From: a virus
Taxonomy: Duplodnaviria; Heunggongvirae; Uroviricota; Caudoviricetes
Virus record (IMG/VR): IMGVR_UViG_2695420589_000005
Length of the DNA: 6,641 nucleotides
Reading direction: 5' to 3' (one strand)
The translations under genes were made by a program, and so were the position numbers. The notes beneath the pieces were generated by a model. That model had not been told where the DNA came from, ran no database searches, and was given only the letters and a program-made list of their open reading frames with translations. Of the stretch, positions 1 through 6,565 are shown in pieces. Every line of letters starts with the position of its first letter. The first letter of the stretch is position 1.

Positions 1-41
1 CGCCGGGCATGTGCCAGAATCGCTGATTCAGTCTGTGTCAT
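1..41 (-). CDS. K: tail assembly protein K, 5' fragment (first 13 codons; gene continues beyond window start)
   Basis: ATG at 39-41 (reverse complement), 10 nt downstream of the L stop at 52-54. Hand translation MTQTESAILAHAR matches my recollection of the lambda gpK N-terminus. Position directly after L as in lambda. Confidence 0.65.
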   Translation of the reverse strand, partial: MTQTESAILAHAR

Positions 42-51
42 AAACCGGGAT

Positions 52-750
52 TTACTGCGAAAGTTTATTAATGGAAAGGAAACCGCCAAAATTGCCGACA
101 TTCCTGCGCAGTTCACACCCGCGCATGCACTTGCTGCATCTGTCCTTACGGATATCCGTGGTGGGGTTGTCGAACTCATCCGCCACCGCAGGACCGTTAT
201 ACCCGCATTCATCTCCCCGGTAATCCCACATACAGGTGTTCGCCAGCATGATGCGACCGGGAAACAGCGCCCCGTCCGTCTCGGTCGGTGTAGCCAGCAC
301 AAACGAGGCCGTCATGGCTGTCAGCTGCGACATCTGCTCCACCACCCAGCGGTCACTCAGCTCCTGCTCCGGGTCCGCCTCCGGATTGCCCGCAACGAAA
401 TTCACCGCATCCAGAAAACGGGCATACACCCGGCGGCGGACCACCGTGGCCCCCACCAGACTCTGCAGGTCTTCCGCCATCCCGGTGACCAGACCGAACA
501 GATTGGACACCGTCAGCGACGGTCTGGCACTGCTGCCCCGGCCGTTCATCTCAAAGCCGCTGCCGTCAATCGGGTATGCCTCATACTTACGCCCCTGCCA
601 GGTGACCGGCTCCCCTTTTTCATTCAGCTCATTACAGAAAAAATACCGCTCACCACCCTGTACCGTCAGGTCGATTTCCCAGAGTACCACCCGCGGTGAC
701 TGCTCTGACTTAACCGACTCGTTCAGACTTTCTTCGCGAATATCCTGCAT
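52..750 (-). CDS. L: minor tail protein L (lambda gpL-like), 232 aa
   Basis: Complete ORF in the track, same length as lambda gpL (232 aa) and near-collinear with it from MQDIR... to ...GNFGGFLSINKLSQ, including the Cys-rich C-terminal part. ATG at 748-750 overlaps the M stop (ATGA). AGGTGG Shine-Dalgarno at 758-763. Confidence 0.95.
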   Translation of the reverse strand: MQDIREESLNESVKSEQSPRVVLWEIDLTVQGGERYFFCNELNEKGEPVTWQGRKYEAYPIDGSGFEMNGRGSSARPSLTVSNLFGLVTGMAEDLQSLVGATVVRRRVYARFLDAVNFVAGNPEADPEQELSDRWVVEQMSQLTAMTASFVLATPTETDGALFPGRIMLANTCMWDYRGDECGYNGPAVADEFDNPTTDIRKDRCSKCMRGCELRRNVGNFGGFLSINKLSQ

Positions 751-1079
751 CAGTTCACCACCTGCTTAAACTCCGCGCTGAACTCAACGCGCAACATCCC
801 GACCCGCGCAGACCACCCGGCACAGGTCACCTTTATCTGCCGGTATGCATAGGGTGGCTTCCACAAAAATGCCTTCCAGCCACCGTGCTCTGCCAGGAAC
901 GCTTCCAGATGCCGGGCCTCCTCCCGGGTCACGGAAAGCGTCACCCTGTATGTTTTCAGGTCAGCATTCAGCCCTGCCGCCATACGCTGTGAGTACCCGT
1001 CACCAAAACGCACTTCACGCACCGATGGCTGCGAGTTCACCTCCATATCCGGCTTCACTTTCCAGCGAAAGGTTTTCAT
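750..1079 (-). CDS. M: minor tail protein M (lambda gpM-like), 109 aa
   Basis: Complete 109-aa ORF, same length as lambda gpM, sitting between H and L. ATG at 1077-1079 overlaps the H stop TGA at 1076-1078 (ATGA). Confidence 0.93.
   Translation of the reverse strand: MKTFRWKVKPDMEVNSQPSVREVRFGDGYSQRMAAGLNADLKTYRVTLSVTREEARHLEAFLAEHGGWKAFLWKPPYAYRQIKVTCAGWSARVGMLRVEFSAEFKQVVN
758..763 (-). promoter_or_regulatory. Shine-Dalgarno AGGTGG for L, 7-nt spacer, embedded in the 3' end of M
   Basis: Plus strand ccacct at 758-763; minus strand reads AGGTGGTGAACTG-ATG. Confidence 0.55.
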
Positions 1080-3802
1080 CCACCGCTCCCTGATAACATA
1101 CCGCCATCACGCAACTGCAGCCGGAGTTCATCCTGTGCCCCCTTGCGGGCCATCTCATACACCGCTTTCATCAGCTGCGGCCCTGCCCGCCCGTTGGGGC
1201 CGTCGTTCTGAATCACCACGTGATTGTTCTGATTAAAATTAATGCCTTCAGCCCGCCGCATCTGCGCCGGACTTCCGGCACCGCCGACATAACCACCTTC
1301 CGCATAGCCCCGCATCAGGCGGTACAGATTGCCGACACCAATCCGGCTGGTCGCCTCCTTCGTGAAGACAAACTCCCCGCGATGAACAATCCCCGCAGGT
1401 TCATATTTACCCCCCGTCCCCGTAAATCCCCCGGTCGCGAAATGGAAGTTCGCCGCCGCAGCCTGAATGGCCGTCCCCGTGGAGGCAGACGCACCACCAC
1501 CGAAAGCACCGCCAATGGCGCTGCCGATACTCCCGACTATCCCCACCATCGCCTGCTTCAGAAAAATCTCTGTCAGCATGGACAGCACAGAACGGGTGAA
1601 ACCACGCCAGTTCTGTTCGCTGCCGATCAGCATCGCTGCCATATTCTGTGCAATACCGTCAAAGGTCTGCGTGGCCGCGTTTTTAACCTGCGAAAAACTG
1701 TCCGTCGCACTTTCCGCCCACTCGCCCCAGCCGGACTTCATNNNNNNNNNNNNNNNNNNNNNNNNNNNNNNNNNNNNNNNNNNTCCACGAAGCTGCTCCT
1801 CCGCAGACCAGGTGTTCTTCAGTGCAGATGTGGCCTTCGCCAGCGCAGCCGGATTATCACCGTACACCTCACGAAGGCGCTGCTCTTCCGACTCCCGCTG
1901 CGCCTGACGGTCGGTGAGTCNNNNNNNNNNNNNNNNNNNNNNNNNNNNNNNNNNNNNNNNNNNNNNNNNNNNNNNNNNNNNNNNNNNNNNNNNNNNGCCG
2001 CCTGCTGTGCCAGCTCATTCAGCCGTTTCTGGTGTTCAATCTTGTCGCCCAGCTCAGCCAGCTGGCGTTTGTACTCCAGCGTTTCTTTCTCATGGGCCAG
2101 CAGGGATTTTTCCTGCTCAGATAACTGCCGTTTCGTGGCGGCCTCTTTCAGGACCACATACTGATTTTCCGCTTTCCATAAATCACGGCGCTGCTGGCTG
2201 ATTTTTTCATTCGCACCGCTGTGCTTCTCCAGCGTCCTGAGCTCAGTTTCAAGCGCCAGCAGGGCTGCATGCGCCTGGTCTTCCTGGCGCTCACCGGCAG
2301 ACACCTTCACACCGGACGGCTTTTTCTGCGTCGACTCATAATCCTTTTTTGCCGACGCCATCAGCGTGTTGTAATCCGCCTGCAGGATTTTCCCGTCTTT
2401 CAGGGCCTTATTCAGCTCTTCCTGCCGGGCGGTATATTTCTCCAGTGGCGTCAGCAGGCGCTCATACGCCTTCTGCGCCTCTCCGGTATACTTCAGCTGT
2501 GACGACTCACGCTCAGCCCTGTCCCTTGCCGCCAGTTCACCGGCTTTTTCCATATCCGACTGCAGCGTTGCCGCTGCCAGACCCAGACGGGCATTTTCCC
2601 GGTCATCCCATGCGCCCTGAAGGTTGGCCCGGAAAGAGGAGGTTTTACCGCGGCGCTGGCTCCGACTCTGGTACCACTGCCATTTTTTATCCGCCTCATC
2701 AAATGCCTTCTGCGCACTGGCGAGCATATCCGCTGAGGATTCCGGACGACCGATATCCAGAATGGCATCCCACATCGATTTGAATGCCTTCCCTGTTTTA
2801 TCCGCCCAGGTCTCCAGTGTTCCCATGTTTTCTTTCAGGCGACGGGTCTGCTCATCAAAGCCTTTCGTGGCGATATCGTTCGCCGCCTGCAATGCCCCGG
2901 CCTCGTCTCCGGAACGCTGCAGCTGTGCAACATACGCAATCTGCTCTGCCGTCACGTTACGGAACTGGCGCGCCATCGCCATCAGTCCCGACNNNNNNNN
3001 NNNNNNNNNNNNNNNNNNNNNNNNNNNNNNNNNNNNNNNNNNNNNNNNNNNNNNNNNNNNNNNNNNNNNNNNNNNNNNNNNNNNNNNNNNNNNNNNNNNN
3101 NNNNNNNNNNNNNNNNNNNNNNNNNNNNNNNNNNNNNNNNNNNNNNNNNNNNNNNNNNNNNNNNNNNNNNNNNNNNNNNNNNNNNNNNNNNNNNNNNNNN
3201 NNNNNNNNNNNNNNNNNNNNNNNNNNNNNNNNNNNNNNNNNNNNNNNNNNNNNNNNNNNNNNNNNNNNNNNNNNNNNNNNNNNNNNNNNNNNNNNNNNNN
3301 NNNNNNNNNNNNNNNNNNNNNNNNNNNNNNNNNNNNNNNNNNNNNNNNNNNNNNNNNNNNNNNNNNNNNNNNNNNNNNNNNNNNNNNNNNNNNNNNNNNN
3401 NNNNNNNNNNNNNNNNNNNNNNNNNNNNNNNNNNNNNNNNNNNNNNNNGATCGCATCGGCAAGCCCCCTGAACATGGGGATCATCCCGCCGAAGGAGTCC
3501 TTCACCTGACCGCCCTGTTGCAGCAGGATCAGCCAGGGATTCTGACCACCGGCAAGCTGCGTGGCGATATCCGTAAACTGTGCGGGCAGGGTTCGCATGG
3601 CCGCTTTATACTGCCCGACGGAAATCCCGGCTTTTTGTGCAGCCAGCGCCTGGCGGCTCAGGCCCTGTTCAACAGCACTGGCGGTTTTTCTGGCGTCGGT
3701 ATCCAGACCTGAAAAATGACGCCTTACCCGGCTCATCTGCTCATCGAAACGGACAGCATCCAGACTCAGGTCAATAACAAGATCACCAACCGGCTGGGAC
3801 AT
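1076..3802 (-). CDS. H: tail tape measure protein H (lambda gpH-like); nominally 908 codons, interrupted by three N runs with frame breaks across two of them
   Basis: N-terminus MSQPVGDLVIDLSLDAVRFDEQMSRVRRHF... (ATG 3800-3802). Central segment SGLMAMARQFRNVTAEQIAYVAQLQRSGDEAG...KISQQRRDLWKAENQ... (1997-2992). C-terminal segment ...YGDNPAALA...GSIGSAIGGAFGGG...HVVIQNDGPNGRAGPQLMKAVYEMARKGAQDE... ending at TGA 1076-1078. All three resemble lambda gpH as I recall it. Segments lie in frames 1/0/1 (first-base coordinate mod 3), see findings. Confidence 0.85.
1742..1783. other. run of 42 N (masked or unsequenced) inside H; reading frame preserved across it
   Basis: Directly visible; the H frame is the same on both sides. 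Confidence 1.
1921..1996. other. run of 76 N inside H; reading frame changes across it
   Basis: Directly visible; H-like translation is in frame 0 upstream (1997-2992) and frame 1 downstream (1076-1920). Confidence 1.
2993..3448. other. run of 456 N inside H; reading frame changes across it although the length is a multiple of 3
   Basis: Directly visible; H-like translation is in frame 1 upstream (3449-3802) and frame 0 downstream. Confidence 1.
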
Positions 3803-4062
3803 ATCTCACACCTCCCGGAATCCCCGCTGAAGCCATCATTAATGCGGCATCATCCACCATGACATCCGCCACATCCGCAGACGATAAAATATCGCGCCCT
3901 CCGTCCCCANNNNNNNNNNNNNNNNNNNNNNCGAACCGGACGCCTCCGGCAAGTCCTGCCGCTTTCTGCATCAGCATTTTGTCCTCATCCGGCCTCTCCA
4001 CCTGCTCTTCCTCATGCCGGGGGACAAGCAGACTGAAATCAGAGGGATGCATATCCGGATCG
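3783..4062 (-). CDS. T: tail assembly protein T (C-terminal part of the G-T frameshift product), 3' portion only; 5' part lies in the masked run 4063-4553
   Basis: Only one minus-strand frame (first-base mod 3 = 2) is free of stops across 3786-4062; the other two contain stops (e.g. 3806-3808, 3836-3841, 3850-3852, 3971-3973, 3985-3987). It ends ...AGIPGGVRYVPAGW with TGA at 3783-3785, overlapping the H start. Position between G and H as in lambda. The listed N-terminal Met of the track ORF is not a real start. Confidence 0.6.
3809..3815 (-). promoter_or_regulatory. Shine-Dalgarno GGAGGTG for H, 6-nt spacer to ATG
   Basis: Plus strand cacctcc at 3809-3815 is GGAGGTG on the minus strand, followed by TGAGAT then ATG 3800-3802. 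Lies inside the 3' end of the T reading frame. Confidence 0.6.
3910..3931. other. run of 22 N inside the T 3' region; the single open frame is the same on both sides
   Basis: Directly visible. Confidence 1.
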
Positions 4063-4553
4063 NNNNNNNNNNNNNNNNNNNNNNNNNNNNNNNNNNNNNN
4101 NNNNNNNNNNNNNNNNNNNNNNNNNNNNNNNNNNNNNNNNNNNNNNNNNNNNNNNNNNNNNNNNNNNNNNNNNNNNNNNNNNNNNNNNNNNNNNNNNNNN
4201 NNNNNNNNNNNNNNNNNNNNNNNNNNNNNNNNNNNNNNNNNNNNNNNNNNNNNNNNNNNNNNNNNNNNNNNNNNNNNNNNNNNNNNNNNNNNNNNNNNNN
4301 NNNNNNNNNNNNNNNNNNNNNNNNNNNNNNNNNNNNNNNNNNNNNNNNNNNNNNNNNNNNNNNNNNNNNNNNNNNNNNNNNNNNNNNNNNNNNNNNNNNN
4401 NNNNNNNNNNNNNNNNNNNNNNNNNNNNNNNNNNNNNNNNNNNNNNNNNNNNNNNNNNNNNNNNNNNNNNNNNNNNNNNNNNNNNNNNNNNNNNNNNNNN
4501 NNNNNNNNNNNNNNNNNNNNNNNNNNNNNNNNNNNNNNNNNNNNNNNNNNNNN
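4063..4553. other. run of 491 N covering the 3' end of G, the expected G-T slippery site and most of T
   Basis: Directly visible. Confidence 1.
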
Positions 4554-4824
4554 TGGTGAGCACTTCCTGCTCTATCTTCATCACGGCCTCATTCATTGAC
4601 GGTGACTGCGTTTTCTGTGGATGGTTATGCCACAGGGACATCGCCACCAGAAACGCGCCGGTTCTGACGAGATCTTCCACGCTTACCTGCAGGTTGCCGC
4701 TGGATTCTGCCTGTTCTGCACGCCGTTTCAGGAGGGCAAGATGCTCGATACGCTGCAGCGCAGACAATTCGGAAAGCGTGACAGACACACCGTTATATTC
4801 AAATTGTTCTGTTTTCAGAAACAT
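4554..4824 (-). CDS. G: tail assembly chaperone G (lambda gpG-like), 5' 90 codons; 3' end and the G-T slippery site lie in the masked run 4063-4553
   Basis: ATG at 4822-4824 preceded by GGAGGT (4830-4835) with a 5-nt spacer. Translation MFLKTEQFEYNGVSVTLSELSALQRIEHLALLKRRAEQAES...WHNHPQKTQSPSMNEAVMKIEQEVLT matches the lambda gpG N-terminal region as I recall it. The end coordinate given is the last unmasked base, not the true stop. Confidence 0.85.
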
Positions 4825-4829
4825 GTATT

Positions 4830-4835
4830 ACCTCC
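4830..4835 (-). promoter_or_regulatory. Shine-Dalgarno GGAGGT for G, 5-nt spacer
   Basis: 13-nt V-G intergenic region reads TAA-ACGGAGGTAATAC-ATG on the minus strand. Confidence 0.65.
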
Positions 4836-4837
4836 GT

Positions 4838-5590
4838 TTACCCTGCAGCGCCCGCTTCAGTAACGGTGACTTCAGCCACTGCGGCGAACTGACCATTTCC
4901 GCTCACCACAGGGATCTGCACCTTACCTGTCGCCACGCCGTTTACCGTAATTGTCATATCTTTCACACTAATGGTGGCTTTCGACGGATCGGCGGAAACC
5001 GCTCTGAACGTCTTGTCGGTTGCACTTTCCGGCTCAAAAGAAACCGTCAGGGTGGTTGTTTTCCCTTTTGCCACCGTACCGGATGTCGGCGTCACCTTAA
5101 TCGCACTGACCGGCGTAATTTTGCTGCGTTCTTCCGCTACAGAAGGTTTACCCACGTTAGTGACTTTCACCGTGCGGGTGATCACTTCTTTCGCCGTCAC
5201 GGCCTTACCGATACTGCTGACCCAGCCACGAAACACATCCACCGTGCCATTCGGAAAACGGATTTTATAGGCCCGGACATCGCCGCTTTCAAACCAGCCT
5301 ATAAGCCCTTTCTGGCCTTCCTCTCCCGGTTTCCAGGCCAGCGTAAAACTGGTATCACCTGCAGATTTCTGCCCCTGCCCGGTCGCGCTCCAGTCCGCGT
5401 CTTCATCATCCAGGTAGTTATCATCATAGGATTCAGCCGTCATCTCGCCCGGCGTCAGATCCTTCACCTTAGCCAGTCGCTGCCAGTCATCGTCTGACAA
5501 CGGGTTTGCATAAGCATCAGCCTTGCCGTTGTAAACCCACAGAGTGGTACCGGCACCTTTTACCGGCTCCAGGGGATTTGGTGTTGCCAT
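4838..5590 (-). CDS. V: major tail tube protein V (lambda gpV-like), 250 aa, with C-terminal Ig-like (Big_2-type) domain
   Basis: Complete ORF. N-terminal domain ...[12 protein letters not shown]...[30 protein letters not shown]...[41 protein letters not shown] is highly lambda gpV-like. GAGGA Shine-Dalgarno at 5595-5599. TAA stop at 4838-4840. Confidence 0.95.
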
Positions 5591-5594
5591 ATCG

Positions 5595-5599
5595 TCCTC
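5595..5599 (-). promoter_or_regulatory. Shine-Dalgarno GAGGA for V, overlapping the U stop codon
   Basis: Minus strand reads TGTGAGGACGAT-ATG with ATG at 5588-5590; the U stop TGA is 5598-5600. Confidence 0.55.
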
Positions 5600-5993
5600 A
5601 CATCTCGTATGTAATGGAATAAGTCAGATCCGCAGAGCTCCATAACGCCATATCGTCATCACGACGATACTCATAGCCCTGCGTAACCATCGTGGTAATC
5701 AGTCCTGCCAGTGCAGGGATCGCAGTCATCGCCGGATAAATCCGGCTTTCCATCCACTGATCGAGCTCCGAATCAGGTACCTGTGCCGGTAAAAACACCT
5801 CAATATGCAGTGTGGCCCGCCAGGTATCTGCATCCAGCTCTTCACCGGTATACTCTGCATCCGTCAGATAAACCGCGATCGCAGGAAAATCCTCTTCGTC
5901 AAAAACAACGGGGCGACCATCAAACAGCGTCGCCCCGTGTTCATGCTGCTCGAGTGCATCCAGCACTGCGGCACGAATGTCAGTGTGTTTCAT
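5598..5993 (-). CDS. U: tail tube terminator protein U (lambda gpU-like), 131 aa
   Basis: Complete 131-aa ORF, same length as lambda gpU; [33 protein letters not shown]...[23 protein letters not shown] matches lambda gpU along its whole length. ATG at 5991-5993 overlaps the Z stop (ATGA). Confidence 0.95.
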
Positions 5994-6565
5994 CGTTTTA
6001 TCGCAATCCTCAGTTGTTGTTTCAGCGCGTATGCCAGTTCTTTAGGCAGGCGTTCACGCCGGATACGGTCAACATTCTCATCAAATGCCTGTTTCAGTGG
6101 GGCCGCCATCGGGATTTTCACCACCTGAATGGGAAGGCGATTACGCTTTTTCCTTCCCTTGTCGTCATTGCCCTCCTCATATCTGGCCTGGGGAAGACGT
6201 TGCATAACATGCCAGCGCCCATTATTTAATCGCTGGATAAATGCCCGCTGATAACGATGCTGACCGGCTTTGAGTATGCTGTTCGGACGACGCCCCAGCA
6301 TTCTGATCCCCAGCTTAATCACAGGGAGATCACCGCGGTTAACGATAATTCTGGCATTCGGATTTCTGACCGTCGCCCGTTTCAGTCTGGACCGTTCCTT
6401 TACCAGTTTCCGTCTCACCCTGGTTTCCCGGGCAACCTGTGACGAAGACTGATTAATCGCCGTTGTGGCCACGCGGTTAATGGTCATTGCAGAAGCAGCC
6501 GGAATGGCGTTTTTACGAACCCGGCTCAGATTGTCAATCGCCTGATCAAGCCCTTTTATCGCCAT
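5990..6565 (-). CDS. Z: tail completion protein Z (lambda gpZ-like), 191 aa
   Basis: Complete ORF of lambda gpZ size, located between FII and U as in lambda. ATG at 6563-6565 preceded by AGGGTG (6570-6575). Stop overlaps the U start. Confidence 0.9.
   Translation of the reverse strand: MAIKGLDQAIDNLSRVRKNAIPAASAMTINRVATTAINQSSSQVARETRVRRKLVKERSRLKRATVRNPNARIIVNRGDLPVIKLGIRMLGRRPNSILKAGQHRYQRAFIQRLNNGRWHVMQRLPQARYEEGNDDKGRKKRNRLPIQVVKIPMAAPLKQAFDENVDRIRRERLPKELAYALKQQLRIAIKR

What the first reader, a model, noticed from the sequence alone, without database searches (positions are those of the whole stretch)
1921..3448. Tape-measure gene H changes reading frame across two of its three N runs
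The three readable H segments are each clearly gpH-like, yet they sit in different frames (first-base coordinate mod 3): 3449-3802 in frame 1, 1997-2992 in frame 0, 1076-1920 in frame 1. The 456-N run is a multiple of 3 but shifts the frame; the 76-N run shifts it back. The 42-N run preserves frame. The most economical reading is that N-run lengths are estimated gap sizes, so H is probably intact in the real genome. The alternative, two genuine compensating frameshifts or an insertion hidden in the 456-nt run, cannot be excluded from this window.
Basis: seen in the sequence. Interest (0 to 1): 0.45.

Follow-up and report, generated by a model that had tools for sequence, protein, structure and literature searches.

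The report
Scaffold-gap artefact in tape-measure gene
The apparent reading-frame changes in this prophage tail tape-measure gene come from runs of N in a draft assembly that are longer than the real missing sequence; the gene is almost certainly an ordinary intact 857-codon lambda-type gene H.

Summary
On the minus strand the H segments 3449-3802, 1997-2992 and 1076-1920 are each open in one frame only, and the frame changes across the 456-N and 76-N runs but not the 42-N run. The cause is not biological. The window is the whole public draft contig CXDA01000195.1 (GCA_001258955.1), and that record carries the same five N runs. All six readable segments align end to end, without gaps, to unmasked relatives. 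The three closest differ by 2 SNPs in about 5.4 kb. In every relative that has both flanks, the real distances under the 42/76/456/22/491-N runs are 15, 56 (55 in four), 350, 1 and 342 (or 333) bases. They never equal the N lengths. The excesses inside H are 27, 20 and 106 bases, which are 0, 2 and 1 modulo 3, and this predicts the observed frame pattern exactly. Against lambda gpH the missing pieces are 117, 20 and 5 codons. Filling the gaps from a 2-SNP relative gives one 857-codon ORF. Real frameshifts or a hidden insertion are very unlikely. Low interest.

The parts
1076..3802 (-). Lambda-type tail tape-measure gene H as it appears in the scaffold. It spans 2727 positions because of over-long N runs; the inferred real length is 2574 nt (857 codons plus stop).
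   Evidence: ATG at 3802 and stop at 1076-1078. Pfam TMP_2 and Tape_meas_lam_C. 67-86% identity to lambda gpH. Reconstruction with L008 filler gives one 857-aa ORF.
3449..3802 (-). H segment 1, codons 1-118; codon-first-base coordinate is 1 mod 3.
   Evidence: Ungapped match to L001 3992-4452, 459/461 over the whole readable block 3449-3909.
2993..3448 (.). 456-N scaffold gap. It stands for 350 real bases (H codons 119-235 plus one base of a split codon). The excess is 106, which is 1 mod 3, so the frame appears to shift.
   Evidence: 350 bases between the flanks in 136 of 136 relatives. Lambda gpH residues 119-235 are missing.
1997..2992 (-). H segment 2, corresponding to lambda gpH 236-562; codon-first-base coordinate is 0 mod 3.
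   Evidence: 0 stops in this frame against 25 and 11 in the others. 987/996 ungapped to L001.
1921..1996 (.). 76-N scaffold gap. It stands for 56 real bases (20 codons counting the split codons). The excess is 20, which is 2 mod 3, so the frame appears to shift back.
   Evidence: 56 bases in 38 relatives and 55 in 4. Lambda residues 563-582 are missing.
1784..1920 (-). H segment 3 (lambda gpH 583-627); codon-first-base coordinate is 1 mod 3.
1742..1783 (.). 42-N scaffold gap. It stands for 15 real bases (5 codons, SWMAG in relatives). The excess is 27, which is 0 mod 3, so the frame is preserved by chance.
   Evidence: 15 bases in 40 of 40 relatives. Filler sequence.
1076..1741 (-). H segment 4, the C-terminal 221 codons plus stop. 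This is the only part of H called as a gene in the public record.
3910..3931 (.). 22-N scaffold gap inside gene T. It stands for a single base (G in 49 of 51 relatives).
4063..4553 (.). 491-N scaffold gap. It stands for 342 bases: the end of G, the G-T slippery site GGGAAAG and the start of T. The excess is 149, which is 2 mod 3.

Best explanation
The window is a short scaffold from a draft short-read genome assembly. It carries the tail module Z-U-V-G-T-H-M-L of a lambda-like prophage on the minus strand. Its five N runs are scaffold gaps whose lengths do not equal the missing sequence: each overshoots, by 20 to 149 bases. Inside H the overshoots are 106, 20 and 27 bases. Because 106 is 1 mod 3 and 20 is 2 mod 3, the H frame appears to jump at the 456-N run and jump back at the 76-N run. 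Because 27 is 0 mod 3, the 42-N run appears to preserve the frame. The real gene is an intact 857-codon tape-measure gene. Shown here: the Ns are in the public record, the flanks are collinear with relatives, the real distances hold in all relatives, the modulo-3 arithmetic fits, and H is intact in relatives 2 SNPs away. Inferred: this strain's hidden bases equal those of its relatives, and the N lengths came from paired-read gap-size estimation.
For:: the window is the complete NCBI WGS contig CXDA01000195.1 (GCA_001258955.1, 6641 nt) with the same N runs, and the gene calls on it stop at the Ns; all six readable segments align end to end, ungapped, at 99-100% to E. coli Ecol_AZ146 (L001); the N runs 42/76/456/22/491 correspond to 15/56/350/1/342 bases; across about 200 fetched loci the flank-to-flank distances are 15 (40/40), 56 (38) or 55 (4), 350 (136/136), 1 (37/37), and 342 (34) or 333 (85). 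None equals an N length. L008, L035 and L039 differ from the window by 2 SNPs in 5379-5554 compared bases, and their H is 2574 nt, 857 aa, with no internal stop; the missing lambda gpH residues are 119-235, 563-582 and 628-632, that is 117, 20 and 5 codons; the window's own bases plus L008 filler give one 857-aa ORF; in L001 the TMP_2 domain runs without a break across the stretch hidden by the 456-N run. (PMC3446322): scaffold gap sizes are estimated from paired-read alignment and are hard to estimate exactly; lambdoid H regions occur at a median of 2 and up to 8 places per E. coli genome, the kind of repeat that fragments short-read assemblies.
Against: The hidden bases of this strain were not seen, so an indel or insertion private to this genome cannot be formally excluded. 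The assembly method for GCA_001258955.1 was not found, so 'estimated by a scaffolder' is inferred from the non-conventional N lengths and general practice. All five overshoots are positive and at least 20, which points to a systematic bias I could not explain. Hidden stretches are no more and no less variable among relatives than visible ones, so why the gaps fall at these places is unexplained.
Confidence: 0.95

Rival explanations
1. H is a genuine pseudogene, or a gene split in this strain. The N lengths are right (or right modulo 3), and the hidden stretches contain frameshifting indels, so translation from the ATG at 3802 ends early.
For: Taken literally, the frame from 3802 hits a stop 11 codons into the middle segment, at 2959. 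Real frameshifts in H do occur in relatives: PhiR5_1 has a net 1-nt deletion near H nt 2234 and H is annotated there as two CDSs. The J gene next to L001's module is annotated as frameshifted.
Against: This would need length changes hidden in each of the five unsequenced stretches, two of them outside H, in a prophage only 2 SNPs from relatives with intact H. All 136 relatives have exactly 350 bases under the 456-N run. The 22-N run stands for 1 base, which shows the N lengths are unreliable in general. All readable H sequence, 2152 nt, is free of stops in the homologous frame.
Confidence: 0.02
2. An insertion lies hidden under the 456-N run (and perhaps others), for example a longer tape measure or a small mobile element, so the real H differs in length from its relatives.
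For: The N runs make the H span 153 positions (51 codons) longer than in relatives. Tape-measure length varies among phages generally (established knowledge).
Against: The individual excesses (106, 20) are not multiples of 3, so they cannot be in-frame insertions. No relative out of 136 shows any length variation at that site. The excess is also seen at the non-H gaps. The Pfam TMP_2 domain spans this site without a break in relatives.
Confidence: 0.02
3. The Ns are not native scaffold gaps. They are masks of altered length applied afterwards to both the window and the stored copy of the record.
For: A tool description says a few stretches of one collection are masked as runs of N. All overshoots are at least 20, which could be padding.
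Against: The gene calls on record for CXDA01000195.1 start and stop at the N runs: a 221-aa H fragment starts at the first codon after the 42-N run, and no gene is called for G, T or the rest of H. So the Ns were present when genes were called on the public record. Masking a single base with 22 Ns has no obvious purpose. In either case the conclusion about H is the same.
Confidence: 0.03

Closest known systems
Bacteriophage lambda gpH (tail length tape-measure protein, NP_040595.1, 853 aa)
   Same: Same gene order, V-G-T-H-M-L. The readable segments align to gpH residues 1-118, 236-562, 583-627 and 633-852 at 86%, 70%, 67% and 81% identity. Same Pfam domains, TMP_2 and Tape_meas_lam_C.
   Different: The inferred length is 857 aa rather than 853, from small indels in the central coiled region (16 gap positions in the segment-2 alignment). 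About 70% identity in the middle, typical of lambdoid mosaicism.
E. coli lambdoid prophage tape-measure protein WP_023909007.1 (Ecol_AZ146) and IMG/VR contigs L008, L035, L039
   Same: 99-100% nucleotide identity across all readable segments, the same module, and H of 857 aa.
   Different: These records have no N runs. There are 6 amino-acid differences from WP_023909007.1 and only 2 SNPs from the IMG/VR contigs.
Estimated-length scaffold gaps in draft assemblies (paired-read scaffolding, as discussed for GapFiller, PMC3446322)
   Same: N runs of irregular length join collinear contigs, some very short (131 and 137 bp). The lengths disagree with the true distance.
   Different: The assembler and scaffolder used for GCA_001258955.1 were not identified. 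The overshoot is one-sided (+20 to +149) rather than scattered around zero.

Membership tests
Lambda-type tape-measure protein (gpH family) | N-terminal TMP_2 domain (PF06791) | tested here: met
   Window codons 54-118 match profile positions 2-66 of 208 (E=1.4e-28), then the N run cuts the match. The full domain is present in L001 H residues 54-256.
Lambda-type tape-measure protein (gpH family) | C-terminal Tape_meas_lam_C domain (PF09718) | tested here: met
   Window 1079-1741 translation matches at E=2.6e-18.
Lambda-type tape-measure protein (gpH family) | Position between the G/T chaperone genes and M-L in the tail module | tested here: met
   ORF map, annotation of collinear relatives and the Pfam families of the neighbouring genes in the source record.
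Lambda-type tape-measure protein (gpH family) | One continuous ORF of about 850 codons | not testable with these tools
   421 of the inferred 2574 nt are hidden under Ns in this record. The ORF is continuous at 857 codons in relatives 2 SNPs away and in the reconstruction.
Scaffold gap of estimated length (assembly artefact) | N runs present in the deposited draft record itself | tested here: met
   CXDA01000195.1 is 6641 nt and is the exact reverse complement of the window as stored, with the same N runs. Gene calls respect them.
Scaffold gap of estimated length (assembly artefact) | Flanks collinear with ungapped relatives, with N length different from the real distance | tested here: met
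   End-to-end ungapped alignments; 42/76/456/22/491 Ns against 15/56/350/1/342 bases.
Scaffold gap of estimated length (assembly artefact) | Documented scaffolding step in the assembly method | not testable with these tools
   No paper or metadata for GCA_001258955.1 or CXDA01 was found.
Programmed or compensating frameshift within H | A frame change at a defined sequence, conserved in relatives | tested here: not met
   Relatives have no frame change anywhere between the flanks: single ORFs, with distances of 350, 56 and 15 bases that keep the frame. The junctions in the window are unreadable.

The most novel reading that the evidence does not exclude
In this particular strain the stretch under the 456-N run (and/or the 76-N run) really differs from all relatives. 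That could be an insertion or a pair of real frameshifts that splits the tape-measure gene into pieces, giving a defective prophage tail module or an unusual split tape measure.
Probability: 0.02. Interest if true: 0.3.

Novelty: not a real feature. Interest (0 to 1): 0.03.

Why it matters
It matters only as a caution. N-run lengths in draft scaffolds must not be used for reading-frame or length arguments. Here a run of 22 Ns stands for one base and a run of 456 Ns for 350. Taken at face value the record suggests a 908-codon or frameshifted tape measure. It also turns the canonical -1 G-T frame relation into an apparent +1. In the public record H is reduced to a 221-aa fragment. No new biology follows from this.

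Tried and rejected
1. I looked for relatives whose real flank distance equals an N length, which would support a real insertion. None was found among up to 136 loci per gap.

2. I tested whether the hidden stretches are unusually variable or unusually conserved among lambdoid relatives, which might explain why the assembler broke there. Mismatch rates are 0.04-0.25 hidden against 0.06-0.21 visible, so there is no clear difference. The single base under the 22-N run is G in 49 of 51 relatives. No conclusion follows.

3. I tried to find the source by exact DNA patterns in viral contigs, genome contigs and metagenome contigs. This gave many relatives but not the source. The source was then found by exact look-up of the 221-aa H fragment.

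4. I searched the literature for the assembly accession and found nothing.

5. I considered that the constant overshoot of at least 20 reflects a k-mer offset of the assembler (k about 21). This is speculation from memory, it was not tested, and it is not claimed.

6. One Pfam call failed because a test sequence was too short.

Full report
**Observation.** The window has five N runs: 1742-1783 (42), 1921-1996 (76), 2993-3448 (456), 3910-3931 (22) and 4063-4553 (491). I translated the readable pieces of the minus strand in all three frames.
- Segment 3449-3802 is open only in the frame whose codon-first-base coordinate is 1 mod 3. It starts at the ATG at 3802.
- Segment 1997-2992 is open only in the 0 mod 3 frame, with 0 stops against 25 and 11 in the other frames.
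- Segments 1784-1920 and 1076-1741 are open only in the 1 mod 3 frame.

The pieces are tape-measure sequence. Pfam gives TMP_2 for the first (E=1.4e-28) and Tape_meas_lam_C for the last (E=2.6e-18). All four align to lambda gpH at 67-86% identity. The mechanical ORF list shows what a naive reading produces: three overlapping minus-strand ORFs at 2957-3802, 1819-3462 and 1076-1867, each running into Ns.

**Context.** The minus strand carries a lambda-like tail module: Z (5990-6565), U (5598-5993), V (4838-5590), G and T (interrupted by the 491-N and 22-N runs), H (1076-3802), M (750-1079) and L (52-750). This follows from the ORF map, the annotation of collinear relatives and the Pfam labels on the source record's genes.

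**What lies under the Ns.** Megablast found thousands of lambdoid relatives. The best E. coli chromosomes are 98.9% identical, yet the 2901-base query spans only 2748 bases in them. I aligned each readable segment separately to E. coli Ecol_AZ146 (L001), where H is annotated as an intact 857-aa tape-measure protein. All six segments align end to end, without gaps, at 99-100% identity. The sequence between them in L001 compares with the N runs as follows:

| N run (bases) | Real bases in L001 | Excess | Excess mod 3 |
|---|---|---|---|
| 42 | 15 | 27 | 0 |
| 76 | 56 | 20 | 2 |
| 456 | 350 | 106 | 1 |
| 22 | 1 | 21 | 0 |
| 491 | 342 | 149 | 2 |

The two shifts cancelling out has about a one-in-three chance for arbitrary gap lengths. 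It is not evidence of compensating mutations.

**How general this is.** Exact-pattern scans of IMG/VR, GTDB genomes and metagenomes brought in about 200 related loci. In every locus that has both flanks, the flank-to-flank distances are as follows:

| N run | Real distance in relatives |
|---|---|
| 42 | 15 (40 of 40) |
| 76 | 56 (38) or 55 (4) |
| 456 | 350 (136 of 136) |
| 22 | 1 (37 of 37) |
| 491 | 342 (34) or 333 (85) |

No locus has a distance equal to an N-run length. Three IMG/VR contigs (L008, L035, L039) differ from the window by only 2 SNPs in 5379-5554 compared bases. In each of them H is 2574 nt, 857 aa, with no internal stop.

Against lambda gpH (853 aa) the readable segments cover residues 1-118, 236-562, 583-627 and 633-852. 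The missing pieces are therefore 117, 20 and 5 codons. That equals 351, 60 and 15 nt once split codons are counted, and it matches the 350, 56 and 15 hidden bases of the relatives. It does not match 456, 76 and 42.

**Reconstruction against the literal reading.** Replacing each N run with the filler from L008 gives a 6318-nt sequence in which H is one 857-codon ORF. That ORF has 6 amino-acid differences from the L001 protein. Taking the N lengths literally, translation from 3802 stops 11 codons into the middle segment, at 2959.

**Source of the window.** An exact look-up of the 221-aa H fragment that begins right after the 42-N run found a single contig: NCBI WGS record CXDA01000195.1 of assembly GCA_001258955.1, 6641 nt. 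The window is that entire record, and the stored copy has the same five N runs. The gene calls on record are Z, U, V, the 221-aa H fragment, M, L and two short opposite-strand ORFs. G, T and the first 636 codons of H are not called. So the Ns were present when genes were called, which indicates they belong to the deposited draft.

By established practice, irregular N-run lengths in scaffolds are gap-size estimates from paired reads. [quoted passage not shown] Lambdoid H regions occur at a median of 2 and up to 8 places per complete E. coli genome. That kind of repeat plausibly explains why this short scaffold is so fragmented, but this is inference. A direct test found no difference in variability between hidden and visible stretches.

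**Explanation and rivals.**
- **Best explanation (confidence about 0.95).** The frame changes are an artefact of scaffold gaps whose lengths overshoot the real sequence. The real gene is an ordinary intact lambda-type H of 857 codons.
- **Genuine pseudogene or split gene (about 0.02).** This would need hidden length changes in all five gaps of a prophage 2 SNPs from intact relatives.
- **Hidden in-frame insertion (about 0.02).** The excesses 106 and 20 are not multiples of 3, and none of 136 relatives varies in length at that site.
- **Masks of altered length applied after deposition (about 0.03).** The gene calls argue against this, and it would not change the conclusion about H.

**Unexplained.** All five overshoots are positive and at least 20 (20, 21, 27, 106, 149). 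This suggests a systematic bias in the gap estimate. I did not identify its cause.

**Comparison with known things and novelty.** The gene belongs to the lambda gpH tape-measure family on domain content, similarity and gene order. ORF continuity cannot be tested in this record, but it holds in near-identical relatives. The frame-change feature is not a biological feature, so I rate it 'not a real feature' with interest of about 0.03. Its only value is as a caution about reading frames or lengths across N runs.

Noticed in passing
window 4063-4553: The 491-N run hides the end of G, the conserved G-T slippery heptamer GGGAAAG (L001 3654-3660) and the start of T. Its excess of 149 bases (2 mod 3) turns the canonical -1 relation of T to G into an apparent +1 in this record.
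   Followed up: partly
window 3910-3931: A run of 22 Ns inside gene T stands for a single base, G in 49 of 51 relatives. It preserves the frame only because 21 is a multiple of 3.
   Followed up: yes
L046 (SFGJ01000115.1) 119-1859: A 2291-nt contig labelled 'MAG: Clostridiales bacterium' is 96% identical to window 1-1741 (E. coli-type lambdoid H-M-L). It is probably a mis-binned contig in that MAG.
   Followed up: partly
L002 (Escherichia phage PhiR5_1, PV340545.1) 4099-6671: H is annotated there as two CDSs (4099-6432 and 6432-6671). Alignment to L001 shows a net 1-nt deletion near H nt 2234, a real frameshift in a relative. The corresponding place in the window is readable and in frame. PhiR12_2_star also shows two H features.
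   Followed up: partly
window 1472-1508: A cluster of 13 SNPs against L001 lies in the Gly/Ala-rich C-terminal part of H (GGAFGGGASASTGT against GGAVGGGASASGGT). The rest of the segment is nearly identical. It looks like a small mosaic or recombination patch.
   Followed up: no
L028 (IMGVR_UViG_2690316286_000003) 4736-4786 and 8984-9034: The 51-base H 3' pattern occurs twice, 4.2 kb apart, on one viral contig. This could be two tail modules or an assembly chimera.
   Followed up: no
window 4627-4863 (+) and 2269-2502 (+): The public record's gene calls include two short ORFs (78 and 77 aa) on the strand opposite the tail genes, inside G/V and H, with no Pfam hit. They are probably spurious calls made because the real genes are broken by Ns.
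   Followed up: no
window 1250: A single base (A) differs from all near-identical relatives, which have C. The A allele is common in more distant lambdoid H genes (83 viral and 80 metagenome matches to the 51-mer).
   Followed up: partly
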